NCBI GenBank assembly: GCA_000165425.1
Contig: CT868032.1
Coordinates: 124,001-188,000, forward strand
Direction of reading: 5' to 3'
Length of the DNA stretch: 64,000 nt
DNA from: Paramecium tetraurelia
Lineage: Eukaryota
Made by a program: the position numbers and the translations under genes. Under the pieces are notes generated by a model, which did not search any database, was not told where the DNA came from, and saw only the letters and a program-made list of their open reading frames with translations. Below, piece after piece: positions 10,401 through 64,000 of the stretch (the stretch's first letter is position 1; every line of letters begins with the position of its first letter).

Positions 10401-10636
10401 CTTGTTTGATTTGGATTTACATTTAAAGCTTTGGTCCATTTTGTATGAGGATATAGAAAATATTGTTTTTAGTGGAAATGTGATATAATTGAAAAACAAA
10501 AAATCCAAAAGGGCATTTTAGGTATTTTTATATTCATATGATAAAGGGTAAATCGATTGCTAGTTTGACAATGGCTTCACAAAATTAAAGTTAATAAATA
10601 ACAGAACAAATTAAATTTATGATCCAATAATTGTGA
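1441..10636 (+). CDS. VPS13: VPS13/chorein-family lipid transfer protein (about 3,050 aa)
   Basis: Chorein-N (MFEKIIENLLQSILGEYIEGLDQQSLKVGLWSGD...LNIPWKNL), WEPIIE, VAB-like QNLLPFP, QIDN, LGNP and a Gly-rich ATG_C region (GLIIKPVAGVLD). Same frame at all points checked from 1441 to 10521; one 25-nt intron at 10522-10546; TGA at 10634-10636. Confidence 0.95.
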
Positions 10637-10667
10637 CATAATTATTATATATATATATTTTAAAAAA

Positions 10668-13600
10668 TCAAATTTAAGAATATAATTAGATTATTTTAGT
10701 ACCGGTTAATGCTAAAGTTATCACTTAACATAGTGAAACCTAGATATCAATATAACATTACCTTGTAAACAATGTACAATATTCCCAAGGGATAAATCTA
10801 ATGATTATAATCAAAATATTTATCAACTATCCATTATCTAGGTATTTTCTTATCTCCTATGTTTAAGCTATGTTCATTTATTGAGATCTCAATTAATACT
10901 GATGAGTTCATCATTATATCAATCTAAATAATATTATAGATATACTAGTTCTAATGCAAATGTATTTTGTTCTTCGGATTGTATTTTTAATGATTTAGTT
11001 GATTGTATCTTATCAGATATCAGAATGTTTTCACTTTCTAAAACTTAGATCAGAATTTATTAAAATTAAATTAGATTTCTCAAATTCACATTATCCTAGA
11101 TATGACATTTATTTTAAACAAACAATTGTTGAATTTCAGCATAGCATTCTTATTTCAATTTAAGCAACTCTTTTTTAGTAGATTTTTATTCCACTAAATT
11201 ATCCATCAACACTTCTATTTAATCAACTTCATAATATGTTTATGTGCCTTAACAAACAAACATATTCTCATATTTATTTTAATCTCTTTTCTATTGAATT
11301 TCAAGTTCAGTATATAATTTCTTATATAATGCTTCCTCAACTCCAATTAATACTTTCAATTACTAGTTCTTACTGTGTGTTAATGCATATTATATTTCTA
11401 ATTTTTCCTTTTCCTCATTTTATTCCTAAATTTCCTTCTTAATCTATAAGATCATATGTTATTTTTCTCCTTTTTCTAATTCCAAACTTTCCAATTCCTC
11501 TTAAATCGAACTTACAAGCTTTCTTATTTCATTTCTTTCTCATTCTCTAAATTCTCCACCTATTCTGTTAATTGTCTACCTTCTCGTGAATAAACAGCCA
11601 TCCTATTCCTCAATTATAACATCTTCTCATCCATTTCTACTAAATTCTTGAATAACACTTAAACATAGTCTTTCTTTTCCTTAATTCTATTCCTCGAAAC
11701 TATTTCTTATTCATTTAACTCCTAATTGTCCAAATCTAATTAGTATATCCTTTATAGAATATTAACTTTATCACTATCTAAATCTGATTGCTTCTAAAAT
11801 AATACCTCTAATTCTTTTTCTATTTTCTCGACTGATTACCTTCTTTAATCTAATTCTATTGCTAATTTATGCTCTTTTTCTGCCCAATCCTATAATTTAA
11901 TAGCTAATTCATGATGTCTTTCAGCAGTTCTCTTTAATTTCGATTATAGATCATCTAACATCTCACTTTCTTTTGTAAATTTATCTTACAATTCCAATAA
12001 CAATGGATCATCATCAAAATAAAAAGTTGGTTGAATAGTCACTCTGGATTGATGCATAGATAATTATTATAATTATTACTCCAATATATCTAATTTCTTA
12101 TCTTTTTCTTTAATTGTTGATTGTAATTCTTCTAATTGAGTCTTAGTTCCTTCAATCTATTACAAGGTTTAGAATATTGGTTGACTCTGTGATTACACCA
12201 ACTTCTGCAAATCATCCTTTAAATTCAGGTTTTTAGTATTTAAACTATTTATTTATTAAGATAATGCATCTTCAGTTACTTCTACCTCATTAGGATCTGT
12301 TACTAATGATTTTTATTGTTTTTTTTTATTCAACTATTTCTTCACTTCCACTACTTACAAATTTGTTACTTCCAAATCCTTCTTCAAAGTTTCTTTCTTC
12401 TCTTAGTACTATTTCAACTCTTTCTCTTTCAATTAAATCACAGCCTCCAACATTTTAGTATCATCATCCAATTTTCTAAACTGATCATTTAGTTAATTTA
12501 AAATTCTTCAATTTCTACTTTATTTAAAAATTCATCTCTTCCTCTCTTACTTCAATATGATACACCTCTTAACTGATTTCTGTCAATTGCTCCTATTCCT
12601 TCTTGATTTCCTCTGATAACTTAGATCTCTATTTCTCAAATTCTTAGATCTACTCTTACTTTTCTCTTATCTCTCCCTGAATATTATAATACTACTATTT
12701 AAGTTTCAACAATTCTTCTTTAGATTCATTCAAAGTTCTTAGTTCTTCATCCTTATTTCTTAGCATCTCCTCTAAATTAGCAATATCCATTTCAGCCTTT
12801 GCTAAGTCATCCTCAAATTTACTCCTCTATTCTGACTTTATTTAAAAGTCTCTTTCCAATTTACTTAGATTCTAATCTAATTCAGACATCCTCTTTTTAA
12901 TTTCTTCCTCTTCCTTCTCGTAAAATTTCAATTCATCCTCCAACTAATTGAACTTCTACTTTTAATCATTTACTTTTTATTATTTCTAATAAACTAATCC
13001 TGCATACTATTAAACCTACTCTTCCTTCTCAAATACTTCCTTCATCAATCTTTCCATATCCTTATCTAATTTTTCAATCTAATCTAACTGATGCAAATGT
13101 TTCATTTATTAATCTGTAAGTTTATTTAAATTATTCTTCTAATCTTCTATATCCAATTGAATTTTCTTAATCTACTCCTATCTTTATTCCTTTTCTTTAT
13201 TTTACTTTTCTAAAATTTAAATTTATGCCTGAGTTGCTTATTTGTTTCGATCCAACTCTTATTAAATCCTATCAGCTTTATCCTATATTGCATTTTTCAA
13301 TGTATTTTCTTATTTTATACTATCCTCTAATTTTGCCCTTAAAGCCTGCAATTCAACTAATTATTTCTCTTGATTTTCTGTATACAATTTCAGATAATTG
13401 ACTTCTTAAATCACTTGATTCTTTTAATCTAGTACCTTCTATTATGACTTCTATTATTCAGATAAATCCTCAACACTCTAGTCATATTATTATTTGGTCT
13501 ATAAATATGATCTTTGTATTTCTTCCTTCTAAGGTACAATCAACAAAACCTATTCCTTTTGAATTTGTAATTCTTCAATCAACTACTCTAATAACTACTT

Positions 13601-16600
13601 TTCCTCTGAAATTTGAACAGTTAGATCTTCAATTTTTCTATTAATATTCGCACTATCTAAATTCATTTCTGTGTAGATCTTAATTTCTTATTCTATCAAA
13701 GCATTGTTTTATTTATACTAATTTTATTGATCCAGCAATTATTATTCCAATATCTTTGCTTATTCAATATCATCCTTTAATTAGTTAATGTTTTAATCTA
13801 ATTGTTAACTCTCAATACTCAATGATGATATTTATTATTCCTTCGTTTACTTTACTTATTTTTTTGATTCAACCTCTTGGAATAACCTAGCTAATTCAGG
13901 CGTATATCTTGTGATTTCTGCCTACAAGTCATTCACTTACTATTCGAGTAGACCTACCTTCTCTCCCAAGGGCATTTATTCTCTTAATAAATGATCTCTC
14001 TTCTATTTCTATTTTCTTGTTAGAATTGATAATTAATAATTTTCTTGTGATATTCTCTACAATTCCTCTTTTTTTTCCTTAACAACAATTTGTAGATCTA
14101 AAATCAAGGATTCCAAATTTTTTATTTGCTCTTTAACCTTCTGCTGTCCCTTTTGAAGTTCATTTAACCTTTTAGACGATTCTATATTTTAACTCAACCA
14201 TTCTGGAACATTTTATTATGACTTACTAACATCCTCAACTAAAGTAACTTGTTAGGCTTATAAATCATTGACCATTGATTCTATGTCTTTATTTTGTAAT
14301 TTCATTTTTTCTACTTATTCTTATTTAATTTATTGTTCAGTCTACAAATCTTGTAACACAGTAGCAGAAGATTAGATAAATAATTTTAATTATTCAATCT
14401 ATGATTACTTTTCCTTCTTTTATTTCAATAAGAACTCCAGTTCAATATCATCTTGACTTAATTATCTGACTGATTCTGTTATTTAAGCAATTTAAATAGT
14501 TAAATCAGATAAATTAGAGTTTTAATCCTAGATTATCTGATTCTCATGGAACACTTATAAAGGCCAGGGCATAGATCTTTGATTTTAAGACAATCTTTAT
14601 TCTAATTCATTATATTATAGTTATTTTTGGGTCAATCTTGATTCCATTTATAAAATCTTCTCATCCAATTCTAAATTCTTTTTAACCATCTCATCTGATT
14701 TTTATTATCTTTATTGAACTTCTTCTTCCATCATATTCTATATTACCTTGTATATTTCTTCTTATTTATTCTTCTTCTCTTACAACTTGAATTCTAATTC
14801 ATGAATAACATCTTCTAAGGCTAGATTCTATTTTACTAAATTATCAGCTTATTCCTGCAACACATTGATTTGTCTATTAATAACAGACACATCCTAGGTT
14901 GCCAAAATCTATTGATTGAAATGACTTCTTTTCAGATCACTTAATTATTGTTTAAGTTATTCAATAATCTTATCCTTTTCTTACAACTCATATTTTTAAC
15001 ATTCCACTCTACTCTTTAACTAATCCATATTACTACTGAATCCAGCCAAAATTTATTGTTATTAAACAAATTGATAATCTTAATCTTAATCATACGAATT
15101 AATTCCACTATCTCTTACAATACTTTCTCTATCTTTGTAAAATGAATTATTATTTTGATTAGACTCTATTTCAAAATTCTTTGATGAATTCAAATATTCT
15201 AATTCCTTTAATTTTGATTCTTTCTCCACCAACCTTACCTCTAATTAATGAATCAACTCATCCATTGCTAAATTCTTTTTCACCAATTCATCTGCCTTCT
15301 CACATTAATCTTCATTTGTCTTCATTAATGCTTAATATCTTAATTCAACATCTCTTTATTATAACTCTTATTCCTTATCGTATAATTATTTTTACAACTT
15401 AGATATTTCTTCATGTAATTAAACAATATTCATGTTCTTCTCATGCAATTATTCTTACATATCCATCAACTCCGTATTTTGAATAAATGATTTCCTCTTA
15501 GGTTTCTAATCCTCAATCACAATCGATTCCAATTGATCTCTTCTTTTTATCTTATAACTTAATTGTTACTTCAACTCTTGTATCCTATTCTCAACATCTA
15601 AATTCTATTAATTCAAATCTTACAAATAAGTATGTTGTGACATACTCATTATTTCATCTTTCTACTGAATTTCAAATTTCAAGAACTCAATTTGTGATTC
15701 CTATTATTTTATTGTCTCCTACAATTAATCAATCTAAAATTAATAGTCATGAGGAATTGATTCATTTTATGGACCAAATATATTTATTGTTGGTAATTCC
15801 TGAATATAAGAAGTTACTGTTGGTTGAATTGCTATTTGTCTTTATTACACACTCTAGATTTGCTATTCAACTGAAACCTTGACTTCTATTTCCTCTTGCA
15901 ATTAGTTTTATAATCTAAAAACTTCCTATTCCTCTTTCTTCAATTTAACTTTTAACTCTTAAACTTCAATTTATTTTAATTTCAATTGTTATTGAATTAT
16001 ATCACATTCATGTTATTCTACTTCTAATTATGAAATTAATTCTTTTCTTGAGGATATATTTTTGGGTTTAAGCGAGGTTGAAGAGTGTTGCTCGTTTTCA
16101 AACATGCTTATTTAGTCTTAAATTAGATTGTGAGCTTATTATTTTTCAAGCAATTTAACTTACAGTTCATGCATCATATCATCCACTGCTTAATTTTATT
16201 TTACTAAGTCATCAATTGCTATTAATTTTTCGGTTTCACCCTTTGTAGGAGTACCAATTCCTAACATAATATTTTAAGATCTTAAATATTCTAATTAATT
16301 TTTTGTTTTGGCTAAGTGATCTTCAATTTCTTATTTTTCTGCTAATTACTTCTCCAATTAAGCATTCAAGCTCTAAGTGTCTTATTACAATTTCTTTAAT
16401 TGAACTCTTACTTCTTAATTGTATGCTTTCTCCACTGCTAATTGCTCATTCAACACAGACGCTTATGATTTCATTTATTTTAATATTTTATCATCTTCCC
16501 CATAGGATTCCATGATCTATTCTAATTCTTATTACTATTGCTTCTTATCATATAGCTTTTTCTCTAACTCAATTAAAATATCGTTCAACTCCTCATGCTA

Positions 16601-16983
16601 TTTTATAACTTCATCAACCTATGAAGTGTTTGGCTTGTAGGATATTCTTTGACTATCTGTCCCTGATTTAAGTTGCTGTAATTCTTATTCCTTTTCTTAT
16701 AATTATTTTTTTAGCTTCTCAAATTCTTCCTAAATCTATAATCCAAGAGCGTTTAGGGATTTGGGATATGCTAATAATTGATCGATTGGATTATCAAATA
16801 TTGGTTAACTCATTATATCCTTTTGATTGATTCTATTCTTTAATGATTTAATCTCACTCGCTTAATCATTAATTATTCTCTCCTATTTTTAGATATGTTA
16901 ATCAAGGTCTACTCTTAAATAATCTCTATACCTTAAATCTAAGTGTTCACTACTTTAAGAAGTGAAGAGGTGATTTGTGACAT
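10668..16983 (-). CDS. Giant Q/E/K-rich coiled-coil protein (about 2,050 aa) with apparent frameshifts; possibly a recent pseudogene
   Basis: ATG16983, a 23-nt intron near the start, two 22-nt introns near the end, TGA at 10668-10670. Heptad-like Q/E/K/L/I composition throughout. Frame changes near 12510 and 11530 have no convincing canonical intron. Confidence 0.75.
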
Positions 16984-17593
16984 ATTGTAAATTATTAAAT
17001 ATAAATATGGATAATTTATAGTTGTATATTTTATTTATATAAATCTCAAATATAAATGAAATCAATTATTTCATTCGATTATCGCTTAAATAAATACTAT
17101 AAAATGTGCTATTAATTAACTAATGATATCTATAGAGATGGTAGTGGATTTAAGAATTATTATTGTATTACACCCTTGATTTTTTTATGTATAATTTATG
17201 TATAATAATAGTATAAAATTTAATAATTTAACCGAAATTGTGATTAACTTTTATGGAAAAAAGACTAAATTATAATCAATTCATGTACATGATTTAATAG
17301 TTCTAATGATAATCATTCTAATGGATTTGATTTTATTTAAAAAATAATCTTATTGTAACATCTATTTATTAATAAGAAGTTTCATATTTTGAATTTTAAT
17401 ATAAATTAAAATGCATCGAATCTATTTTATTCAATTTGAATTATGAGCATCAAATTTCAGTTAATATGAAATAATCAATGTTAATTGGTTATGATATAAA
17501 TAATTTAAAAATAAAGGTGAATGATTTTCAATATAAACAAATATTTGATTTAAATTACAACATAAATCACAATTCCAAAAATAAGCAAAATTT

Positions 17594-40002: not shown

Positions 40003-43000
40003 TCATCCATATTCATAAAAGTAAAATAAGCATCTAATAGGAGTAGATATGCAATAAAGGAATTAAATAATCGCGTTCAGTAAAATTGCATTAAATACAA
40101 CAGTAATGGCAATAAAAGGAACAGCAATCATCAAAATGATATTTTAGTTGATTGGTGAATCAATTTCTGATTTGCAAATCATGCCATCTTTACTTAAAAA
40201 TAAAGAATCTTAGCATTTTGTGCAATTTTCTAGAGATGAGCACTCCAAACATCCTATCGAACAATCAGAGCAAGTTTGTTCATCTAAATATTTCCCTTTA
40301 GGACAATCTGTTACACATTTCGAATCATAAAGAGTTAAGCCATTTTTGCAGACATTGCATAGATCTTAACTTTAACACTTTTTGCAATTCTCTGGACATG
40401 GCTTACAAGTAGAATCTTTAGTTAAGAAGTACTCCATTTCTTCACATTAGAGGCATTTGTCCTTCTAACATATTAAACAATGCTTTTATTGACACTTGAA
40501 ACACTCTCCATTATCTAAATAATATCCATACTAATCGCATTAGGTGCATGAGTCCTTTGTGCATGTTTGACATCCCTATTTACACTATTTGCATTCGAAG
40601 TTGTCAAGGTAAAAGCGAGTAGGTTAGCATTTAGTGCATTGATCTTTACTCCTGCAGGTTAAGCATGGGGATTAACACTTCGAGCATTGGTTTTAATTTA
40701 GATAAAAGGTGTCATCAATACAGGATTCACATTAATCAGAAGTGCAAAGAGAGCAATTGGGTTGACATTACTTACATTCTTATTTATCAATGTAATATTT
40801 ATCTGGACACTAATAACAAAATTCTTTATCGCAAGTTTAGCAATTAGGTTTGCATTATAAACAGTTAATGCCCTCTTGATAATACCCTGATTTACATTAC
40901 AAACATTCCTAATAATTGCATCTCAAACAATTTTAGTTACATGCTATGCATTTCCCTTAATTGAGATAGTAATTAGCTAAACATTGGACACAGGCTTATT
41001 CAAGATTACATCTAATACAACCTTCGCCACAAGTCTAACAAGTCTCAAAATTGCAATTGAATTAACAATATTAGTTTTAACATAGCTAACAATTACCATT
41101 TTGATCCAAATAATATTTGTCTTAACATATATTGCATTAAGAGTCTGTGCACTACTAACAATTTTCCCATTTGGTAGAACAAGAATTACAAGTTATGCCA
41201 TCAAAGTAATAAGAAACGTTGCAGGATTGACAATCACTTGATGAGGAGCACATATTGCAATTGTCTTAACAACGCTTGCAATCATGATTTTCAATATAGG
41301 TACCTAAAGGACATGATTAGCACCCAGATTGATTACATGCTTAACAGGGTTGATTGCATGATTTACAAATGCCTGAGGATAAATACACTTATGTAGTTGA
41401 TACGCATTTTTGACAAGAGTCTTTTGAATTGCATTCTAGACAATTGGTGGAACAAGGTTCACACAATTGATTTTAATTGATGAAGTATCCTGCTTAACAT
41501 TGAGAACATTAATTATTCAAACACTTTATGCAATTATCGAGTTGACAAGTTTGACAAATACCATTTGGAGAGGCTTAACCTTCAATACAAGTCAGACATT
41601 TATCAAAGTCTGAACATTATTTGCACGGTGATACACAATTAAAACATCTGTGTCTGTGTTTGTCCAAGTATTGATTGGCCGCACATTCAGTACAAATATC
41701 TGACTATTCATCACAACTTTTACAATTAGGATTGCACCATAAGCATTTAAGTTACTCCCAATCATAGTATTGACCTTTGGGACAAGTGCAATCCTTACAA
41801 AGTATGCATATCTATGTTGCCTGAATTAATTAAAAGATGTATTCATTTACACACGTTTTACATGAATGATCTGGATTTTCACAACTTTTACAATTTTCTG
41901 TTGTTGTGCATTTATAACAATTCACGATGTCAACATTACCAAAACTAATTTCGTAATAATGGCCATCTTTACAACTGAGACATTGTGTTTCGGAGTCTCT
42001 GCAGGTTCTACAGGGAGATTTACATTCGAGACATTGCCCATCTTTATAAAAGTAACCATCTGCACATCCATCAGGACATGTAATTTTCTAATTAATGAAT
42101 TTACAAGTGCCTTTACAATATTTAGGACATTATTCGCATTTGTTTGGAGAAGGACTGTATGCATTGTTCTTACATTCAGTACAATATTCATGTGAAATAC
42201 ATTGACTGCATCCAAAAGGACAAACTAAACATGAATTGTTTTATAAGTAGTATTCACTTTAACATTTTAGACAAGTAGTGCTATTACTGCATTAAGTACA
42301 ATATTCAATATTCAGTGAACAGTTAACACATTAACTATTGGACAAATAAGAACTATCTTAACAACTAATGCAGATTTCAGGAGAGTTCTAACATGTCTTA
42401 CAATTATTACTGCACTTTAAACAATCTCCATCCTTCCTAAAGTAACCTAATGCACATTCAATGCAATTTGAAGATGTAGTTGTGCAAGTAGCACACTTTA
42501 AATCGCATTACTAGCATTATTTCTGAGTTAAATAGAAGCCTAAGAAGCAGTCTGTGCATTCATCACGACCATTTTCACAAGATTTGCATGTTTTTGAACA
42601 TGGATGGCATTTATTGTTGTTTAAATACTTACTAATACCACATTTGTCGCATGTGTCCTATTCGTAACAAGTGACACATTATTCAACTTTGCAACTTTAT
42701 GATTGGCATTTCGATTCGTAATTTAAAACGTAAGTGGATTTACATTTCGTGCATTTATCTTAGCTTTCACATTCTGCACAATTTGAACGACATTGTGCAC
42801 ATTATCCACTAGACAAATAGTATCCTGAATAACAACTCATGCAAGTAAACTAATTATCTTTACATGTTTAGCAATTACTGGAACATAATGAACAGTTTGA
42901 TCCATTCATGAAGTATCCATCTAAACATGATTAACAAGTATGTGTGTTTGTACATTAATTACATGAACCTTAACAATATTAACAGGTGACATTCTATACT

Positions 43001-44955
43001 AGTTTTTGTTAACATTGAGTACAACATGATGGACAAGATGTTTCACATATCTTACATAATCCTGTTAGATTATCTAATACATAGCCTACTTGACATTCCA
43101 GACAAAGCTTCTTTGAAGTGCATTTCTTACATGGAGCTTCACATAAAACACATGTGTTTGAATCCAAATAATAGGAATCATTGATACATGATGAACATGT
43201 ACTAGTTGTATTCACACAAGTATAACAAGGTGTTTAGCATGATACGCATTTATTTTGAATTAAGGAGAACCCAGGTTTACAACTATAACATTCAGACGCT
43301 GATCCAGAGCAAGATGTGCATTGAGAATTACATGCTATACAATTCATTTTATCAACAAAATAACCTGTGTTGCAAACATGACATTGAGATGAATTTGGAC
43401 AAGTCTAACAATTTCCGATGCATTTATTGCATTATCCAATTGATTCATAAAATTCATCAATACATCCAGTGCAAAAAGACTCTGAAGTACAACTACTGCA
43501 TTAGTTTTTACATTATGTACATCCGTAACTCGAATTTACATAATATCCTTTCTGGCTTTCCAAACATTTGCTTGCATTTTCACATAATTTACAGCCCGGT
43601 ATGGAAGTGCATGATCGACATTCAGAATTGGTCAGAAAGTAACCATCCAAACAACTAGAACATTGAGTTTCACTTTAGCATGTTTTGCATGGAGAAATAC
43701 ATTCCTTACATGTGAAGTTATCTTTGTAGTAATTTCCAATGCAACTCTGGCATTAAGTATCACTCGTACAGGTTGCACAGGACAGAGGACATTTGAAACA
43801 CTTTTTATTAGATTCATAATATCCATCATCGCAAACTTCAACAATACTGGTGCATGTAGAATTATCAGGCTGACACAATAGACAAACTTCCTCAGTACAA
43901 CCAATAGCGTTTTGATTCTTGCCTTTATAGTAGCATTGATTTTCAGTACTGAGGTCACCCTTGCAAACACAAGTTTTGGTTGTTGAATCCCATTCTGTGT
44001 GTGGTTTACACACTTTACATGTTTCAATATTGTTGTAGAAACTACAAATTGAGCAAAGTGGGTCCTTGCAAAACCCAATTAATCGAATTGCATAGTCTAC
44101 CAATGTTTCTATAATATTAATGGCAACGAAGTTATTGCTTTCAAAAGTCAAAATGAAGGATATTGCTAAATCCTTCTGATTTTACACGTTTAATAGGGTT
44201 CTTTTGATCCCCATTAATATAACTAAGGTATTTTATCTTATATATTAATAAACATCAACCGTATATTTATTATTACCAAATGTCTTAATACTCATATATT
44301 TATCGTATGTTTTATCATTGTATTTGGCAAAATCAAATACAACTATCACACTCTCCTCAATCCGAGTGCCAATTACCAGCACGTTGTCTACTTTAATTTA
44401 AATGATGTGTCGACCCTCAGAGTCAAAAAACTACTAATTGTGTTATTCAACCTTAAGGGGAGTTTTTATATTATCCTAAAATTGTATGGTTACTGTGTTC
44501 ATGATATTGGTATCAAAATTTGTTATTTGAGTATTTTAGAAAGGTAGAATATTACTCATATATTTAATAGGCCCATCCTATTACCGAGATTTTACAAACA
44601 CTGTAGCTAAGTCTACATCATATACGCTAAGCATACACTCTTAGGACTGTTTTATTTCTTAATAGGACACATCGCAAACGCATTTTCCATCTTTGAGAAC
44701 TCTATGATTCTCGCTATAACAGCTTAAGCAATAATTTCTTTCATTAAACTTACAATCCTTGCAATTTCTATTACATTCATAGCATTGGCTTGATTCAATT
44801 CTAGTTAGCTCTTTGTTTGAACTTGAACATTAACACAGTCCATCTACTAAATATCTGGTCGGTTGGCATTAATTACAATTGCTTGCCACACATATCTTAC
44901 AAGTGTTGTCGCAAATACCCATTGCATAATCTAAGAATACAATGAACAAAATCAT
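40003..44955 (-). CDS. Cysteine-rich (furin-like / CXXC repeat) type-I membrane surface protein, about 1,650 aa
   Basis: Signal peptide MILFIVFLDYAMG; dozens of CxxC-x4-8-CxxC-GYY/F repeats; a Cys-poor insert at about 44100-44620; C-terminal TM IILMIAVPFIAITVVFNAILL; frame consistent with ORF-track fragments. Confidence 0.9.
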
Positions 44956-55660: not shown

Positions 55661-57360
<1,700 letters not shown>

Positions 57361-57858
57361 TTATTATATTATTATAAATCACAAATGTATCGATTTATTA
57401 TATACTTAGTCTGAATTTAGAAATTAGGTTCTTTTTTTAATCAAATTTCACATTACTTAATGATTTCACCGAAATTCCCATCCAAGTTCATCATACATTG
57501 TTCAAATATAAACATGTGTGAAAGTAGAACAAACAGACATTATCCCAATAGTTCTCTTTATCATCTATCAATGCATAAACTAACTGGATTTCAAAAAAAT
57601 TAATTAATTGATCACTTTTTCATTTATTTTCTAAATATTTGATACTGATATTAAATTTGTTATAGAAATTACAAGGAGAAAAATACTGTTAAAAGATAAT
57701 TATTTTCCATCAAATTAACCACATTAAAAGTGTGGACTTCTAAAGTTGTAACATTCAGTTGAACTAACCAGTGTTTTGGAATGAAAGTGCTAAGTAGAAT
57801 TTATTTCTAAATTGAGACTCATAAAATGGAAAAAAGAAAATAAATTTAATTTACATAA

Positions 57859-59331
57859 ATGGGAATAATCATAGTATTAATCTAATTCATCGTAACTGCC
57901 TTAAGCTAAACTAATAATTCAATCGATTGCAATAAATATTTCTATAAATTTGGAACTACTGAGTCACCTCTTGTTTTTAGTGGAGATGTAGTTTATATTT
58001 AGGAATCTCAGCAGGTCTAAATTAATGCGAAATATACTGATGTTCTATTTGAAGATCCAATTTATTTTGGTTTTATTGAAGAAGATGGAAAGCCTCCAGA
58101 AACAACATGTCTAAAACTCGCAGTTCATCGCTTAGATAATACTCCTTAAATAATATAAAGTTTATCTATTATAACTTCAAATAATATCATTAATTAATGG
58201 AGACATTATTCGTTTAAATTACCATTACCAAAATTAAATAATCAAGATGTTTCCACCAAAAATTAAAAAATTCGTGCATATAATGGATCCTATTCAATTA
58301 ATTTTGAATCAACTCAGCAAAGAGATTTTAAATATGTATTTATCTTTAATTTCATTATCACTGTCGATAGTCAAACTGAGCTCCTTATCGATACCAAGTT
58401 TTAAACTTAAATTGAAATTAATTAATCACTTATCATACTTCCTGTATCTAAACTATTATGGTGTGCTGACCTTGCTTGTGAAACTCATTTGAATGAATCT
58501 CCATTTCTCAAATTGAATGATTTATTTGCTATAAAATAAGTAATCGTAGATAGTCAAATTAGTAATTAAATAATAGAAAATATTAAAGTTGAAATTATAG
58601 GTAAATCACTTTATCGGAAAGAAAAACCAATGAATTTGAATAATAAAACTCCAGGATAAGTTATAATTTAATTGAAAGTACCAATATATTGGAAAAATGT
58701 AAGTATCAAGGTTACTTCAGCAATATCAGGAAAACCTTTTATTTATGGTTTTGAAAATACTATTGATACTAGCTTTAATTCTCTTGATTAGTCCTGTGTT
58801 GATGGAACTCAAATTAAATCAGTTGACTCTGAATTAAGATGGTGCTCTGATATTACATGTTAAAAAATTTTGGAATAAACTCCGAGTTTGCACATTAATG
58901 ATTTTGTTTATATTTAATAATTAGTTAATTGCTCAGCCTGTCAAAACTACTTTTTGACTCATACTGAAGTATGGTTTGCCAATGGTGGATTAAATAAAAA
59001 AACAAATTTAGTTGAAATTATTAATAATACCAAAGGATAAGTTAATATGAAATTAAAAATTGATGTAGTTTGGAATAAAGTTTCAATTAAAGTTACTTCA
59101 TTTTTAAGTGAAACCTCAGATCAAGATGAAGACGAAGGGTCAAACTTACTTGACTCTTTATAAGCCACCCTTGAAATCGAATGTACAAAACCTGAAGGAA
59201 AGGAGGTTTGTGCAACTTGCGAAGAATAATGCAACATAAATGGGTATTCCGATGATACTTGCGGATTTTGCAATAGTTATGGATTCTTAACATTTTTAAA
59301 CATGATATTATTGTTTGCCTTAACTATTTGA
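57859..59331 (+). CDS. Secreted/GPI-type surface family member 1 (490 aa; domains A-B-B' + Cys cluster + hydrophobic tail)
   Basis: Intronless open frame; signal peptide; family motifs CNKYFYKFG, FSGDV, YFGFIEEDGK...CLKL, QWRHY, two WCxDxxC modules, C..C...C...G...D.C..C and a hydrophobic C-terminus. Confidence 0.85.
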
Positions 59332-60084
59332 TCTATCTATATATCACTATATTATTCATCTTCAAAAGTAAAGCCTAATGAATCAATTATATCATTTAAC
59401 TTTTAAGAAATTTTTAAATTATATTTTCTATTCACAGAATTATTATTTTAATTGATTAACAATCATTTTTATATTAATAATTTTACAGATGTCTATGATG
59501 TCTATTTAGAATTGCGACTTAGCTTTTCTTTTTGATAAAAGGGTGTATGAACCTAAATTAAGAATCAAATTCATAAAAACACTTTGATAAAATAATGTGA
59601 TGATCTTTAATTAATCATTCTGTAAAATAAAAAGAAAACAAACTTCAAATTGTTTTAAATCTGAAAATTATATTCACTCTATCACTTGGAATGTTGGATA
59701 AATTTAATTATTGAACAATAGCAAATCAAATTATTTGTTTAAGTAAAATAAATAAAAAAAGTTTAATTGAGCTTGAAAATAAAGAAATTAATAAATGGCA
59801 AACATTATAAGCATAATTAATGCTGGAATACCTATAAAAGTTACAAAGAATACCAACTAGTAAATCACGAATATATATATTTAAGTATATAAAAATAAAT
59901 TCTTTCATGCAAGTATTATAATCAATTTTTATTTGAATCTTCTATTTTTCGTTTGTTTTTTGTTTCATTAAGTTTACCTTTCAACGTATTGAAATAATTG
60001 TTATAGTAAACTAAATAGAATAATTACTAGAAATTTAGTATTTCTAAAGAGTGATAGTAATAAAGTTAAGATTAATTAATCTCA

Positions 60085-61233
60085 ATGAAAATGCTAGTAT
60101 TTCTATTTATCTTTTTTGTTATTGGATTAACAAGACTCCCTATAGAAGGTGCAGAATGTAACATATATTTGGAAAAATTTGGAACTGCTAATAATGAAGA
60201 TGGATCTGGTGCTACAAAGCTTGCTTTCTCAGGAGATGTTTCCTACGTCCCAGGTACTTCTAATTTGAGGGTAAACTTAAGATATTCTGATGTTGATCGC
60301 TTTAATGATCTATAATACTACGGTCTTGTTTAAGAAGATGGGAAGAAAGCGAATGAAACATGCCTTGACCTTAAACTATATAAATTCACATCAAACTAAT
60401 ATGCTGATGGCATAGAAGTTACTGATTTAACAATAACACCATCAAACAATTTCTAAAAATAATGGAGATATTATACATTCATAATTCCAGGTGAACAATT
60501 CGAGACAAGATTAGTGAAGACGTCTAATTCTAACTAATATATTTACAAAGGATATTACGCAATTGCTTATTATGCTGCTGGTACCGACGAACTCTAATAC
60601 ACATTCTATTTTGATTTCGCAGTCGTTGTTGATAGAACGACCAATTAAGCAGAAACAGCTTTTACTCCTCTGAGTCGAAAAGCAACTGCATCATGTAAGC
60701 CTAATGAACCTTGTGAGAATTAGGGAGATAGCATTTTAAAATGGTGCACAGATTTAACTTGTACTGCATTCGGATAACAAGACCTCCATCAAAATGATCT
60801 TTTTGTAATATTATAGATAATGAACACAGCTGATAAGAATGACTATTATTTAATTGATACTGAAGTTTGGTTCACTGGTGATGGAATCCTTTAAAAAGCT
60901 ACACCAATTGTTGTGAATAACTCAATTAAAGGATAGGCCATCATTTAATTATAAGCTGATATAGCTTGGAATAATCTTTCTATTTAAGTTTCTTCTATCT
61001 TATCGACTAGTTAAACTGGAGGAAGAAGATTGTTAGCCTAAGTGACCTATGACACATATACAGGACTTCTACAAGATATAAATTGTATCAAAGCTGAAGG
61101 AGCATAAACATGCCCCAATTGTGAATAAGAGTGCATGGTTAATGGATTTGCTCATGATGGATGTGAACCTTGCAACCAATCAAATTTAACTGTATTGCTA
61201 TTATTGGTTACATTTTTATTCATAATGATTTGA
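60085..61233 (+). CDS. Secreted/GPI-type surface family member 2 (382 aa)
   Basis: Intronless; MKMLVFLFIFFVIG signal; KLAFSGDVSYV, YYGLVQEDGK...CLDLKL, QWRYY, WCTDLTC, TEVWFTG, GGRRLL, Cys cluster, hydrophobic tail; TGA at 61231-61233. Confidence 0.88.
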
Positions 61234-61905
61234 TTGGTTTTATCTAAATTTTATATATTAAAAACAAATATTTGCAAATAATCATTTATCAGTTTATTGT
61301 TGAATAAATTATAAAAATAAAATTCTACTTTGAAAGGTACTATTGAAGTTTTTAAAATGCTTGCCAAAATGTGTTAAAAGATGCTTTTGAGATCATAAAA
61401 TGGACTAAGTACTTAAAAACGAGGATATAAAGATTAAATCTTTAGTAATTTTTAATTCATTTAAATAATAGAGAAATTTCATTGAAATATATAGATTTAT
61501 AACATAATATACATTCATTTATACATATGGTTGTAAATGCAATAAGAATTATGAATAATAAAAAATAATTATGTTTAAGATACAATACATTATAAGGTAG
61601 ATAAAATTATAACAATTCTTGCTTTCTTGAAATGGCTACTATCCTGTAACAATGTCATCTATATTTTGCAAATTTATAAAATTAACTCAATAGATTTTAC
61701 TATAGAGAATGACTTATTCAGCTTTATTTTGAATATTAAAACCAGAATATATTTACTAAATAGTTCACCCTTATTTTGATTTGAAATTGAATCTTCAGCT
61801 ACTTTAATTTAATGATATTGAATTTTTTGAAGTAAGAAAGGCTTCTATAAGTTAGGAAGAATAATGAAGATAATAGTATGATTTGATATGATATACATAA
61901 TTGAA

Positions 61906-63069
61906 TCAAATTGTGAAAATTAATAATAATATTGCAAAGAAAACAAATGCAATCTTATGGGAAAAACAACAGCTTGGACAACCATCATGAGCAAATCCAT
62001 TAGCTTCCCATTCTTATATGCATGTTGGACATGAATCTGATCCTTCTGCTTTAATACACTAAATTTATTAAGTTTCTCCAAAGACTGGATCAAACTAAGT
62101 TTAAAACAATATTCTTCTTCTTCCTGTTTAGAAGGCTGATAAAGTGGAAGTAACTTTAATTGTGACTTCAGTCCATGCAATTTCAGCTTTCAATTAAATA
62201 ATTACTTATCCTAGTATTGTATTATTTATAGAAATTGGTGATGCTTTCTTTAATAATCCATTTCCTGTGTACCAAACTTCAGTTTCTGTCAAATAAAAGC
62301 CCTCCATTCCAGCTGTTGTAACAAATTATTAAAGAACAAATTCATCATTTAAATGAAGATCTGGAATGGCAAATGTAGAGCATTTCAAATCAGTGCACCA
62401 GTTTACTTTTGTATCATAGATTGCATTGCAAGCGCTAGTAATTGTACAATTGAATGTTGATCTCTAACTCAAAGGTTTGAAAAAAGGGTCATATAAAGGA
62501 TCTGTTGCCTTATTAATAATAATTGAAAATTCAAAAAAGAATGTATATTGGAGTGAATCTGTACCAGTTGCATAATAAGCAAGTGCAAAATATCCTGTGT
62601 AAATGAATTATTCAGTATTAGATGTTTCAACCAATCTAGTTTTCAATTCAGTTCTTGGAATTGTGAATACATAATATCTCCAAAATTTTGAGAAGTTGGT
62701 TGATGATGTTATTGTTAAATCAGTGACTTAAACTGGATCAGAGTATTTATTGGATGTATATTACCATAATTTAAGATCGAGACAAACCTCGTCAGCTGAT
62801 TTACCATCCTCCTTAACAAGACCAAAATATGTTACATCAGTAAAGAGATCATCATCATTATATCTCAAATTAACCTATGCAATAGTATTTCCTTAGACAA
62901 AGGAAACATATCCTGTGAAAGCTAATTTTGAAGTAGCTGTTCTTTCAGCATTAGAAACAGTTCCAAATTTGTTCAAATATTTCATACAGTTTGGATCATC
63001 GAAAGACAGACCTGATACTTGCCCTAAATAGATTACAACCAGGATTGTATTTACGAATATTGTTTTCAT
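61906..63069 (-). CDS. Secreted/GPI-type surface family member 3 (387 aa), inverted orientation
   Basis: Intronless; signal peptide; KLAFTGYVSFV, YFGLVKEDGK...CLDLKL, FWRYY, WCTDLKC, TEVWYTG, GRRRIL, Cys cluster, hydrophobic tail; TGA at 61906-61908. Confidence 0.88.
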
Positions 63070-63518
63070 ATATTAAATTAATGCTTTCGCTGCTGAATTT
63101 TTCTTTTTTCAACCAAAAATTACAATAAATTCTATATGAAACAATATTGAACAAAATTCATATTTTTTTGATTGAAAATTTGTAGCATTCAAAAATATGA
63201 TGATACCATTATCCTCATACTAACAATCAAATAAATTTCTTCTTTAGCAAGGCATACTTCTTTTTACCTCATTAGAATTCATTCTATTACTTTTTTTTAA
63301 TAATGTCCAATTGGTTAATATTAAATATTTAATAATTTTATCCATCATTAACTACTCAATGCTCTTAGAATTTTTTATGAATTAAATATATTTGTCTTAG
63401 ATTTACATTTGAAAATGAGTTTATACCAAATCATTATCTTTTAATATTTTTCTGGTAGAATTTGTTCTAATTTTGGGTTGAAAAATGAAAAATTAGGCAG
63501 AATAGACATCCATTTAAA

Positions 63519-64000
63519 ATGAAAAATTCTCTATCTTCGCAATCCTGGTTTTACTTTAATTATAGTATTTATCAAGTCTGAATTTCGATGATCCAAACTG
63601 TATGAAATATTTGAACAAATTTAACAAATTAAATCCTAATGACGGATTAGGTACTTCAAAAATTAGCTTTCACAGGAGATATATACCTTGTCACCAACTC
63701 TAATAATGCAAAAATTAGCTTGAGATTTATTGATGCTGATCTTTTTAATGATCCAATCTATTTTGGTTTTATTAAGGAGGATGGTAAAACAGATGATTAG
63801 GTTTGTCTAAAACTTAAATTATGGTAATATACATCTAATAAATACTCTGATCCATTGAAAATCACTGATTTAACAATAATACCATCAAACAATTCGGAAA
63901 AATAATGGAGATATTATTCATTCATATAAGTTCAAAACTAGATTAGTTGAAACATCTAATTCTAATTAATTCATTTACACAGGATATTATTCAATCGCTT
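63519..64000 (+). pseudogene. Surface family member 4, frameshifted, truncated by the window end
   Basis: Clear homology (FDDPNCMKYLNKF, LAFTGD, YFGFIKEDGK...CLKLKL, QWRYY), but a -1 nt indel in the A-run after the ATG, a +1 nt indel in the A-run at about 63658-63662, and an out-of-frame deletion at about 63930. Confidence 0.75.

What the first reader, a model, noticed from the sequence alone, without database searches (positions are those of the whole stretch)
57859..64000. Cluster of an uncharacterised secreted/GPI-anchored surface protein family in birth-and-death evolution
Seen: four intronless paralogues in 6 kb (+, +, -, +). They share a signal peptide and domain A (C..Y..KF, LAF[ST]G, YFG...EDGK....CL.L.L, WRYY). 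The three complete copies also share domain B (WCxDxxC...TEVW...GQ....L.....W....I.V.S), a C..C...C...G..DxC..C cluster and a hydrophobic C-terminus with no cytoplasmic tail. Spacers are about 450-750 nt, against 10-100 nt between many housekeeping genes in this window. The proteins lack the periodic Cys repeats of classical Paramecium immobilisation antigens, and I recognise no named domain. Inference: a diversifying surface, ciliary or extrusome protein array with room for individual regulation, possibly a variant-expression or recognition system.
Basis: partly seen in the sequence, partly recalled or inferred. Interest (0 to 1): 0.7.

Follow-up and report, generated by a model that had tools for sequence, protein, structure and literature searches.

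The report
Paramecium surface proteins resembling egg-coat ZP modules
A tandem cluster of Paramecium genes encodes secreted, probably lipid-anchored surface proteins whose predicted fold and layout most resemble the zona pellucida (egg-coat/uromodulin) polymerisation module, which reviews treat as an animal invention.

Summary
Under the ciliate code the region carries three intact paralogues (57859-59331 +, 60085-61233 +, 61906-63069 -) and a fourth copy from 63519, cut by the window end.

- Copy 4 is a pseudogene with three frame changes.
- Copy 1 has domain B duplicated.

The family is found only in Paramecium, in aurelia species and P. bursaria. It matches no Pfam family.

AlphaFold models (pLDDT 82.8 and 89.4) give two beta-sandwich domains.
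- A protein-language-model search independently points to ZP-C and ZP-N families.

A conserved Arg motif lies in a flexible loop before the last strand of domain B. This is where ZP precursors carry their cleavage site and "external hydrophobic patch". A Cys knot and a GPI-signal-like tail follow.

The canonical ZP cysteine pattern and sequence signature are absent, so this is ZP-like, not a proven ZP member. Cleavage and polymerisation are inferred. RNA reads show copies 1-3 transcribed together, which argues against variant-antigen switching.

The parts
57859..59331 (+). Copy 1 (490 aa from the Met at 57859; the ORF is open from an upstream ATG at 57781). Layout: signal segment, domain A, domain B, a second domain B, Cys knot, hydrophobic C-terminal tail. 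It lacks the conserved Arg motif.
   Evidence: ORF and translation. The two B domains are 36% identical over 94 aa, E 9e-20. It falls in a clade of A-B-B' proteins with support 100/100. The Arg motif is absent in 5 of 5 proteins of this type. Low-level sense-strand RNA reads and RNA-like contigs cover it.
60085..61233 (+). Copy 2 (382 aa), the modelled member and the best conserved copy.
   Evidence: It is 91% identical to a P. octaurelia protein. The AlphaFold model has pLDDT 82.8 and pTM 0.78. Sense-strand RNA reads cover it, and both flanking spacers have zero depth in all four runs.
60085..60150 (+). Signal-peptide-like N-terminus of copy 2 (residues 1-22).
   Evidence: Predicted helix at residues 2-14. 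The hydrophobic 10-mer score is 3.62. This is a heuristic only; no SignalP was available.
60151..60684 (+). Domain A of copy 2 (residues 23-200): a ZP-N-like beta-sandwich with one conserved Cys pair (C25, C93).
60685..61023 (+). Linker plus the core of domain B of copy 2 (residues 201-313): a ZP-C-like beta-sandwich, with Cys at 204, 210, 221 and 226.
61024..61029 (+). Conserved Arg-Arg motif (R314-R315, in the context G-R-R-L-L-x-Q) in a low-confidence loop. It is a candidate proteolytic site at the position of the ZP consensus cleavage site.
   Evidence: 33 of 39 aligned family rows carry an Arg here. The 6 without are the 5 A-B-B' proteins and P0028. Residues 314-318 have pLDDT below 50. 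Polymeric, cleaved uromodulin structures align only up to model residues 313-315. Uromodulin is cut at F587|R588 (PMC7737619, passages). Cleavage itself was not tested.
61045..61092 (+). Last beta-strand of domain B (residues 321-336), following the Arg motif. It corresponds in position to the ZP 'external hydrophobic patch' strand.
   Evidence: Predicted strand at 321-336. ZP precursor structures that keep the EHP (5bup, 4wrn, 3qw9, 5hzv) align out to model residues 337-342. Uromodulin filaments without the EHP stop at 313-315.
61084..61173 (+). C-terminal Cys cluster (C334, C343, C346, C350, C360, C363).
   Evidence: C334, C343 and C360 are invariant across the 12 divergent members.
61183..61233 (+). 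Hydrophobic C-terminal tail with no cytoplasmic residues, preceded by small residues (N-Q-S). This looks like a GPI-attachment signal. The stop codon is at 61231-61233.
   Evidence: All 41 members surveyed end in a hydrophobic stretch (my measure gave 9-29 residues). This is a heuristic; no GPI predictor was available.
61906..63069 (-). Copy 3 (387 aa), with the same layout as copy 2 but faster evolving.
   Evidence: It is 50% identical to copy 2. Its best outside match is 71% (P. octaurelia P0010). RNA reads fall on the opposite mate orientation to copies 1 and 2, as expected for a minus-strand gene.
63519..64000 (+). Copy 4: a pseudogene, head-to-head with copy 3 and cut by the window end.
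   Evidence: Three frame changes and a TGA at 63948-63950. The blastx pieces lie in frames 3, 1 and 2; the best match is a P. tetraurelia protein, 80% over 94 aa. It forms an inverted repeat with copy 3 at 81-86% nt identity. Omega against copy 3 is about 0.98.

Best explanation
The cluster encodes members of a Paramecium-restricted multigene family of secreted, most probably GPI-anchored, surface glycoproteins. Their ectodomain is laid out like a zona pellucida (ZP) module precursor.

The layout, in order:
1. signal peptide
2. a ZP-N-like beta-sandwich (domain A)
3. a linker
4. a ZP-C-like beta-sandwich (domain B)
5. a conserved basic (Arg-Arg) motif in a flexible loop
6. a final beta-strand that completes domain B, in the position of the ZP 'external hydrophobic patch'
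7. a small Cys knot
8. a GPI-type hydrophobic tail

Shown here: the genes, their transcription from the coding strands, the family's range and conservation, the motif positions, and the predicted folds with their best structural matches.

Inferred:
- The proteins enter the ER and receive a GPI anchor.
- They are displayed on the cell or ciliary surface.
- As in uromodulin or egg-coat proteins, a protease cuts at the basic motif. This frees the ectodomain from its membrane-bound C-terminal propeptide, so that it is shed or assembles into extracellular filaments or a coat.

My odds:
- real secreted/GPI-type family: about 0.9
- genuinely ZP-module-like fold and layout: about 0.7
- cleavage-triggered release or polymerisation: about 0.3

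The overall confidence given (0.6) is for the statement up to and including the ZP-like layout, not for the cleavage and polymerisation step.

The array itself is old. The three types (A-B-B', copy-2 type, copy-3 type) predate the aurelia species. It evolves by unequal rates, a local inverted duplication and pseudogene formation.
For: Genes and family:
- establish the ORFs and their similarity.
- Every named relative is from Paramecium: 22 of 22, 29 of 29, and 6 of 6 including P. bursaria.
- A full HMMER scan of 1.84 billion representatives gave only 61 hits at E<=0.001.

Termini:
- 38 of 41 members have an N-terminal hydrophobic segment.
- All 41 end in a hydrophobic stretch.

Fold of domain B:
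- The whole-protein model has pLDDT 82.8.
- Foldseek's top hits are uromodulin, from E 1.2e-6.

Fold of domain A:
- The domain model has pLDDT 89.4.
- ZP-N domains rank 1, 2, 4, 8, 9, 15, 19 and 22.

Independent method:
- For homologue P0009, after two unnamed clusters, every named family shown in the language-model search is a ZP family (PF00100, PF23344, VERL_C; 0.86-0.77).
- Its domain A alone goes to ZP-N/CUT_N clusters (0.88-0.80).
- One UniRef record of the family carries the automatic name 'Egg coat matrix protein'.

Layout:
- An Arg is conserved in 33 of 39 rows, in a loop with pLDDT below 50.
- Precursor ZP structures align through the following strand, to residues 337-342. Cleaved uromodulin filaments align only to 313-315.
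- Uromodulin is a GPI-anchored precursor cut at F587|R588, just before its EHP-containing propeptide (PMC7737619, passages).

Transcription:
- Stranded oligo-dT reads fall on the coding strands of copies 1-3.
- Two spacers (59388-60020 and 61287-61708) have zero depth in all four runs.
Against: - There is no sequence-level link to ZP families. Pfam gave nothing above cut-off for the 3 window proteins.
- Among 40 members scanned at E<=10, no ZP family is among the 25 families shown of 37. The 12 not shown matched at most one member each.
- A family profile found 0 PDB sequences at E<=10.
- The canonical ZP cysteine pattern is not there. Domain A has one conserved Cys pair, not two, and one of those Cys lies in an N-terminal helix.
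- Foldseek on domain A alone gave no hit at E<=0.001 and no ZP entry in its top 50.
- Whole-model TM-scores to uromodulin are low, 0.18-0.21.
- All Atlas scores to named ZP clusters are below 0.9, which the tool calls leads only.
- The basic motif is R-R-[LIM]-L, not a furin consensus. In distant members it is reduced to x-R-[LIFM]-L. It is missing from the A-B-B' type that includes copy 1, so it may be structural rather than a cleavage site.
- GPI anchoring, surface location, cleavage and polymerisation are all untested.
Confidence: 0.6

Rival explanations
1. The proteins are generic GPI-anchored adhesins or receptors with two Ig-like domains. They sit on the membrane as monomers or dimers and bind a ligand such as food bacteria, a chemoattractant or a mating partner. 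The resemblance to ZP modules reflects only the common beta-sandwich fold. The Arg motif is structural, and there is no cleavage-triggered assembly.
For: - Many unrelated Ig-like chains score only 1-2 Z units below the ZP entries.
- Foldseek on domain A alone finds only nanobody-type V domains, all weaker than E 0.001.
- There is no ZP sequence signature and no canonical Cys pattern.
- The motif is absent from the A-B-B' type.
- A review states that small GPI-anchored proteins of Paramecium include a folate chemoreceptor (PMC10143506, passages).
Against: - Two different methods assign the two domains specifically to ZP-N and ZP-C, in the right order.
- ZP entries are strongly over-represented at the top of lists drawn from 48,161 chains, a library that contains very many Ig domains.
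- The position of the conserved Arg, in a disordered loop just before the last strand and followed by a membrane anchor, matches the ZP precursor layout.
Confidence: 0.3
2. This is the first reader's reading: a variant surface coat system in which one paralogue is expressed at a time, as with the immobilisation antigens. The wide spacers would serve individual regulation.
For: - The family is tandemly arrayed, fast evolving in part, and has secretory/GPI-type termini.
- Read numbers differ about tenfold between three RNA samples of one study: 41, 472 and 35 reads laid.
Against: - Copies 1, 2 and 3 are covered together in run X3 (word depths about 17, 175-312 and 63-156).
- In raw-read run X21 all three copies have reads; in X23 copies 2 and 3 do.
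- The copies are old orthologous lineages kept in several species, and copy 2 is 91% identical to its P. octaurelia orthologue.
- They lack the Cys-periodic repeats of known Paramecium antigens. A gene of that kind does lie elsewhere in the window (40003-44955, PF03302, E 2.8e-28).
- Much of the excess in run X22 comes from reads with fixed differences and loose ends. These probably derive from a near-identical paralogue or another strain.
Confidence: 0.05
3. The proteins are content or membrane proteins of a secretory organelle (trichocyst or other extrusome). They would be made as proproteins and cut at the Arg motif during granule maturation, rather than being cell-surface proteins.
For: - They have a signal peptide.
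- A conserved basic motif could be a proprotein-processing site.
- Expression depends on condition.
Against: - A C-terminal hydrophobic tail with no cytoplasmic residues, present in all 41 members, is a membrane or GPI signal, which is not expected of soluble granule matrix proteins.
- There is no similarity to any Pfam family, including granule protein families.
- I found no direct evidence either way on localisation.
Confidence: 0.05

Closest known systems
Uromodulin / GP2 (GPI-anchored ZP-module proteins of vertebrates)
   Different: There is no detectable sequence similarity. Domain A has one conserved disulfide-capable Cys pair instead of two. The window's subfamily has no EGF or D8C domains; distant Paramecium subfamilies do have an N-terminal Cys-rich module. 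A Cys knot lies between the last strand and the anchor. The motif is RR[LIM]L rather than a hepsin or furin site. Polymerisation has not been shown.
Egg-coat ZP proteins (ZP1, ZP2, ZP3, ZPD) and endoglin/betaglycan ZP modules
   Different: Same differences as for uromodulin. A 2026 review defines the canonical module as a metazoan synapomorphy with eight invariant Cys and shown polymerisation, and accepts only incomplete 'ZP-like' domains in choanoflagellates (PMC13361971, passages). The Paramecium family fails the Cys criterion.
Paramecium immobilisation (surface) antigens
   Same: Same organism. Both are presumed GPI-anchored surface proteins encoded by multigene families.
   Different: Surface antigens are very large proteins (PMC10143506) built of periodic Cys repeats (recalled). 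A protein of that repeat type lies in this window at 40003-44955 and hits PF03302. The family studied here is 370-500 aa with 8-15 Cys, has no such repeats and no PF03302 hit, and shows co-detected transcripts.
Apicomplexan SRS (SAG1-like) and 6-Cys (s48/45) surface proteins (recalled, not retrieved by any search)
   Same: Both are GPI-anchored alveolate surface proteins made of tandem beta-sandwich domains, encoded in arrays. This makes them a plausible functional analogue.
   Different: No SRS or 6-Cys structure appeared among the rows shown in any of the five fold-search lists. The Cys pattern differs. Absence from the lists is not proof.

Membership tests
Zona pellucida (ZP) module | Bipartite architecture: an N-terminal ZP-N and a C-terminal ZP-C immunoglobulin-like domain joined by a linker. 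| tested here: met
Zona pellucida (ZP) module | Sequence signature recognised by the family models (Pfam PF00100 Zona_pellucida/ZP-C, PF23344 ZP-N). | tested here: not met
   None of the 3 window proteins hit them at E<=1. They are not among the 25 families shown (of 37) for 40 members at E<=10. The family profile found 0 PDB sequences at E<=10. Profile-profile comparison (HHpred) could not be run.
Zona pellucida (ZP) module | Eight conserved cysteines: four in ZP-N (two disulfides) and four or more in ZP-C. | tested here: not met
   Domain A has only two conserved Cys (C25, C93). Domain B has C221 and C226 invariant, C210 nearly so, and C204 in part of the family. A further cluster (C334, C343, C360 invariant) follows the last strand. 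Pairings are unknown.
Zona pellucida (ZP) module | A protease site (CFCS/CCS) between the ZP-C core and its last strand (the EHP), which belongs to a C-terminal propeptide. | tested here: inconclusive
   The position is right. An Arg is conserved in 33 of 39 rows in a loop with pLDDT below 50, directly before strand 321-336. Precursor and filament ZP structures differ in how far they align across this point. However, the motif is not a furin consensus, it is absent from the A-B-B' type, and cleavage is untested.
Zona pellucida (ZP) module | Membrane anchoring of the precursor by a C-terminal transmembrane segment or GPI anchor. | tested here: met
   By sequence heuristic only. All 41 members end in a hydrophobic stretch, mostly preceded by small residues.
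Zona pellucida (ZP) module | Polymerisation into filaments. | not testable with these tools
   This needs biochemistry or EM.
Paramecium immobilisation antigens (Cys-periodic surface antigens) | Large size and periodic Cys repeats (detected by PF03302-type models). | tested here: not met
   The members are 365-503 aa with 8-15 Cys and no PF03302 hit. A control in the same window (40003-44955) hits PF03302 at E 2.8e-28.

The most novel reading that the evidence does not exclude
The Paramecium family is a true, very divergent homologue of the animal ZP module: ZP-N plus ZP-C, a cleavable propeptide carrying the last strand, and a membrane anchor. It would polymerise after cleavage into an extracellular coat. 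That would move the origin of this polymerisation module from the animal stem (or Holozoa) back to an ancestor shared with alveolates, or else reveal ancient transfer or a striking convergent re-invention. It would also give ciliates a previously unrecognised filamentous surface matrix.
Probability: 0.25. Interest if true: 0.85.

Novelty: new variant of a known kind. Interest (0 to 1): 0.65.

Why it matters
The ZP module builds egg coats, uromodulin filaments, the tectorial membrane and insect and nematode cuticles. A 2026 review treats it as a metazoan synapomorphy, with only incomplete look-alikes in choanoflagellates (PMC13361971, passages).

A ciliate family with the same two-domain fold, the same order of parts and a conserved basic site at the position of the activating cleavage would have one of two meanings. 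It would either push the module's origin far deeper in eukaryotes, or show that this solution for controlled extracellular polymerisation arose twice.

For Paramecium biology it offers the first structural hypothesis for a family of about 40 kDa presumed GPI-anchored proteins. Small GPI proteins are known biochemically (PMC10143506), but I found no paper that describes this gene family.

Paramecium is easy to transform and to silence by feeding, so the cleavage and polymerisation hypothesis is directly testable.

Tried and rejected
- **Whole-genome search.** No genome is held for this window. Copy number and chromosomal position could not be measured.
- **The listing of cluster members.** Accessions and names for the unnamed representatives (P0026-P0083) could not be obtained. 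A third homologue search named P0038 as P. sonneborni and P0050 as P. bursaria. The origin of P0042, P0057, P0060, P0027, P0028, P0031 and P0033 stays unknown.
- **Earlier findings of the scan.** Nothing by place, by words or by sequence.
- **Sequence links to solved structures.** A family profile against PDB sequences gave 0 hits at E<=10.
- **Pfam.** Only sub-threshold noise: IBR, Arrestin_N, Laminin_G and others.
- **Foldseek on domain A alone.** No match at E<=0.001.
- **Domain A versus domain B.** No sequence similarity (E 2.0).
- **Telomere repeat search.** 0 matches. The window says nothing on subtelomeric position.
- **The look-up of sequencing runs.** No listed holder is on record as RNA. 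Runs marked 'RNA?' are guesses. I therefore laid three raw oligo-dT RNA runs and one contig run.
- **Complex prediction.** I submitted three copies of the mature part (residues 18-316) of homologue P0009. The result was 'no answer': score 0.00, controls not run, my alignment not used. This is no evidence either way.
- **Tiny introns as the cause of copy 4's frame changes.** Rejected. Two shifts are single-base length changes in A-runs, and the third is a short deletion relative to the other copies. None is flanked by GT..AG at a plausible intron length (reading).
- **The 33-nt skip in copy 1 as an excised IES.** Rejected. The joint has no TA repeat or ambiguity ('both' = 0).
- **Apicomplexan SRS/6-Cys folds.** Considered, but absent from the rows shown in all five fold-search lists. 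Absence is not exclusion.
- **Literature.** Six searches found no paper on this family or on ZP-like proteins in ciliates. The one ciliate paper containing 'zona pellucida' has it only in its reference list.

Full report
**1. What is in the sequence**

The window is AT-rich (25-37% GC) and reads as ciliate macronuclear DNA. With TAA/TAG as Gln (table 6), one search lists the family ORFs at the following places.
- Copy 1: 57781/57859-59331 (+).
- Copy 2: 60085-61233 (+).
- Copy 3: 61906-63069 (-).
- Copy 4: 63639-63950 (+), a fragment.

The three long translations (490, 382 and 387 aa) contain 23, 20 and 17 in-frame TAA/TAG codons and end at TGA. Copy 2 and copy 3 are 50% identical, and copy 1 is 35% identical to copy 2. 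The spacers are 753, 672 and 449 nt. A crude ORF map of the window shows gaps from 18-34 nt to more than 1 kb, so these spacers are not unusual.

Two things differ from the finding.

First, copy 4 is a pseudogene. Its ATG (63519) is out of frame with its own signal segment. The frame shifts again between ...GTSK and LAFTGD, and again after WRYYSFI. A TGA follows at 63948-63950. blastx places its three pieces in frames 3, 1 and 2. It lies head-to-head with copy 3 as an inverted repeat of 81-86% nt identity. Over its 92-codon in-frame middle, dS is 0.27, dN 0.27 and omega about 0.98 against copy 3. The copy 2 versus copy 3 comparison gives omega 0.39, with dS near saturation.

Second, copy 1 carries domain B twice. 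The two copies are 36% identical over 94 aa, E 9e-20.

**2. Family and range**

Every named relative is from Paramecium.
- 22 of 22 hits.
- 29 of 29 with a profile.
- 6 of 6 with a profile of the most distant members, including P. bursaria.

A full HMMER pass over 1.84 billion representatives gave 61 hits at E<=0.001, many of them fragments. The window's species is an aurelia-complex Paramecium. Copy 2 is 91% identical to a P. octaurelia protein. I did not pin the species down further.

A careful ML tree of 41 proteins (none dropped after selection; three long branches were flagged by the tool) gives these placements.
- Copy 2 falls in a clade with octaurelia, pentaurelia and sonneborni proteins (100/99).
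- Copy 1 falls in a clade of A-B-B' proteins (100/100).
- Copy 3 falls, weakly (83/92), next to a tetraurelia/octaurelia pair.

The octaurelia relatives of copies 2, 3 and 4 share one contig length (270,065). The pentaurelia relatives of copies 1, 2 and 3 share another (323,587). The array is therefore older than these species. End branches are very unequal: 0.038, 0.30 and 0.63 for copies 2, 3 and 1.

Two more distant subfamilies exist in aurelia species. They have the same layout plus an N-terminal Cys-rich module.

**3. Termini**

In a crude Kyte-Doolittle survey of 41 members, 38 have a hydrophobic N-terminal segment. The three exceptions look like truncated gene models. All 41 end in a hydrophobic stretch (my measure gave 9-29 residues), usually preceded by S/N/G/D. 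That is the pattern of a signal peptide plus a GPI-attachment signal. No dedicated predictor was available.

**4. Fold**

No Pfam family matches, and a family profile finds no PDB sequence at E<=10.

An AlphaFold model of copy 2, built with a 25-sequence alignment, has pLDDT 82.8 and pTM 0.78. It shows two beta-sandwich domains, a low-confidence loop at 314-318, a long strand at 321-336, a short helix and the terminal helix.

*Domain B.*
- Foldseek's best PDB hits are uromodulin ZP modules (from E 1.2e-6), followed by two-domain antibody fragments. TM-scores are low, 0.15-0.24.

*Domain A.* Folded alone, it has pLDDT 89.4.
- These Z-values lie within the range the tool warns can be a common arrangement.
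- Foldseek on domain A gave nothing at E<=0.001 and no ZP entry in its top 50.

*An independent method points the same way.* The window protein was not accepted by the Atlas, so I used the database homologue P0009.
- For the whole protein, after two unnamed clusters at 0.92, every named family shown in the language-model neighbour list is a ZP family (0.86-0.77).
- For residues 18-200 alone, the neighbours are ZP-N/CUT_N clusters (0.88-0.80).
- These scores are below the tool's 0.9 line and count as leads.
- One UniRef record of the family bears the automatic name 'Egg coat matrix protein'.

**5. Layout compared with ZP precursors**

According to the uromodulin cryo-EM paper (PMC7737619, passages read):
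- ZP precursors are membrane-anchored, and uromodulin is anchored by GPI;
- the last strand of ZP-C (the EHP) belongs to a C-terminal propeptide;
- a protease site just before that strand (uromodulin F587|R588) must be cut for polymerisation.

The Paramecium family shows a matching arrangement.
- An Arg is conserved in 33 of 39 aligned rows. The motif is G-R-R-[LIM]-L-x-Q in 20 close members and x-R-[LIFM]-L in the distant ones.
- That Arg lies in the loop with pLDDT below 50, directly before strand 321-336.
- ZP structures solved as precursors (5bup, 4wrn, 3qw9, 5hzv) align to the model through residues 337-342. The cleaved uromodulin filaments (6tqk, 6zya, 6tql) align only to 313-315, at uromodulin residues 581-584.

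So the strand after the motif takes the place of the EHP, and the motif takes the place of the cleavage site. After the strand come a Cys cluster (C334, C343 and C360 invariant) and the anchor signal.

Points against this reading:
- The motif is not a furin consensus.
- It is missing from all 5 A-B-B' proteins, including copy 1, and from P0028.
- Domain A has one conserved Cys pair, not the two disulfides of ZP-N.
- The canonical eight-Cys pattern that a 2026 review uses to define the module (PMC13361971, passages) is not met.

**6. Expression**

Three raw, stranded oligo-dT RNA runs of the same species label and one contig run were laid on 57700-64000.
- Reads lie on copies 1 and 2 with the first mate on the minus strand, and on copy 3 with the first mate on the plus strand. 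This fits sense transcription of each gene.
- The spacers 59388-60020 and 61287-61708 have zero depth in all four runs.
- Levels in the raw runs are low: 41, 472 and 35 reads laid.
- In run X22 most of the excess carries fixed differences (for example 102 of 114 reads at 60450) and loose ends. It probably comes from a near-identical paralogue or another strain.
- In run X3, whose RNA status is a guess, copies 1, 2 and 3 are all covered (word depths about 17, 175-312 and 63-156). So are the copy 3/copy 4 spacer (19) and the last 180 nt of the window (35).

Co-detection of the copies argues against one-at-a-time expression. Contig depths are poor measures, however, and cultures are populations.

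**7. Reading**

I read the cluster as part of a Paramecium-specific family of secreted, probably GPI-anchored surface glycoproteins with a ZP-module-like ectodomain.
- Shown: the genes, their transcription, the family's conservation, and the predicted fold with its nearest structural neighbours.
- Inferred: anchoring, surface location, and cleavage at the Arg motif with release or polymerisation.

The main rival is a generic two-Ig-domain GPI protein with no ZP-type mechanism (about 0.3).

I found no paper describing the family or any ZP-like protein in ciliates. The library is not complete, and supplements of proteomic papers could not be cross-checked, because I had no accession numbers for the P. 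tetraurelia members.

**8. Verdict**

The novelty is a new variant of a known kind: ZP-like architecture outside Holozoa, with membership unproven. Interest is 0.65.

Noticed in passing
window 58406-58438 (inside copy 1): One contig of run X3 (depth 17) skips exactly 33 nt here. The skipped ends read CT..AC on the plus strand, that is GT..AG on the minus strand. This fits an intron of an antisense transcript, or a length polymorphism, rather than a sense-strand intron. Raw reads were too few to check it.
   Followed up: partly
window 60232-60653 and 62131-62763: In RNA run X22 most reads carry fixed differences from the window (for example T>C at 60450 in 102 of 114 reads, and five sites in copy 3). 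Many have loose ends that diverge after 40-50 nt. This suggests a highly expressed near-identical paralogue, or a different strain, in that sample.
   Followed up: no
window 62975-63612: A 638-nt contig of run X3 (depth 19) covers the whole spacer between the head-to-head copies 3 and 4. By contrast, the other two spacers have zero depth.
   Followed up: no
window 40003-44955 (-): A 1650-aa ORF made of periodic Cys (CxxC-type) repeats with a hydrophobic C-terminal segment. It hits PF03302 (Giardia variant-specific surface protein type repeats), E 2.8e-28. It is a classical ciliate surface-antigen-like protein lying in the same window as the new family.
   Followed up: partly
window 1441-10884 (+), 12485-17074 (-), 55661-57360 (-): Neighbouring genes: a VPS13-like lipid-transfer protein of 3147 aa (PF12624, E 8e-48); a 1529-aa protein with no Pfam family that looks coiled-coil by eye; and, next to the cluster, kinase-domain and EF-hand ORF pieces that look like exons of a calcium-dependent protein kinase.
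   Followed up: partly
homologue P0009 (ESM Atlas): The two nearest Atlas clusters (score 0.92, 196-200 shared features, 350 and 386 aa, unnamed) are labelled Eukaryota with Bacillariophyta as the commonest known phylum. One may be the protein's own cluster. The label could reflect contamination, or real relatives outside ciliates.
   Followed up: no
distant family members P0038, P0042, P0050, P0053, P0057, P0060: The distant Paramecium subfamilies carry an extra N-terminal Cys-rich module before domain A. This is reminiscent of the EGF-type domains that precede the ZP module in uromodulin. It was not modelled.
   Followed up: no
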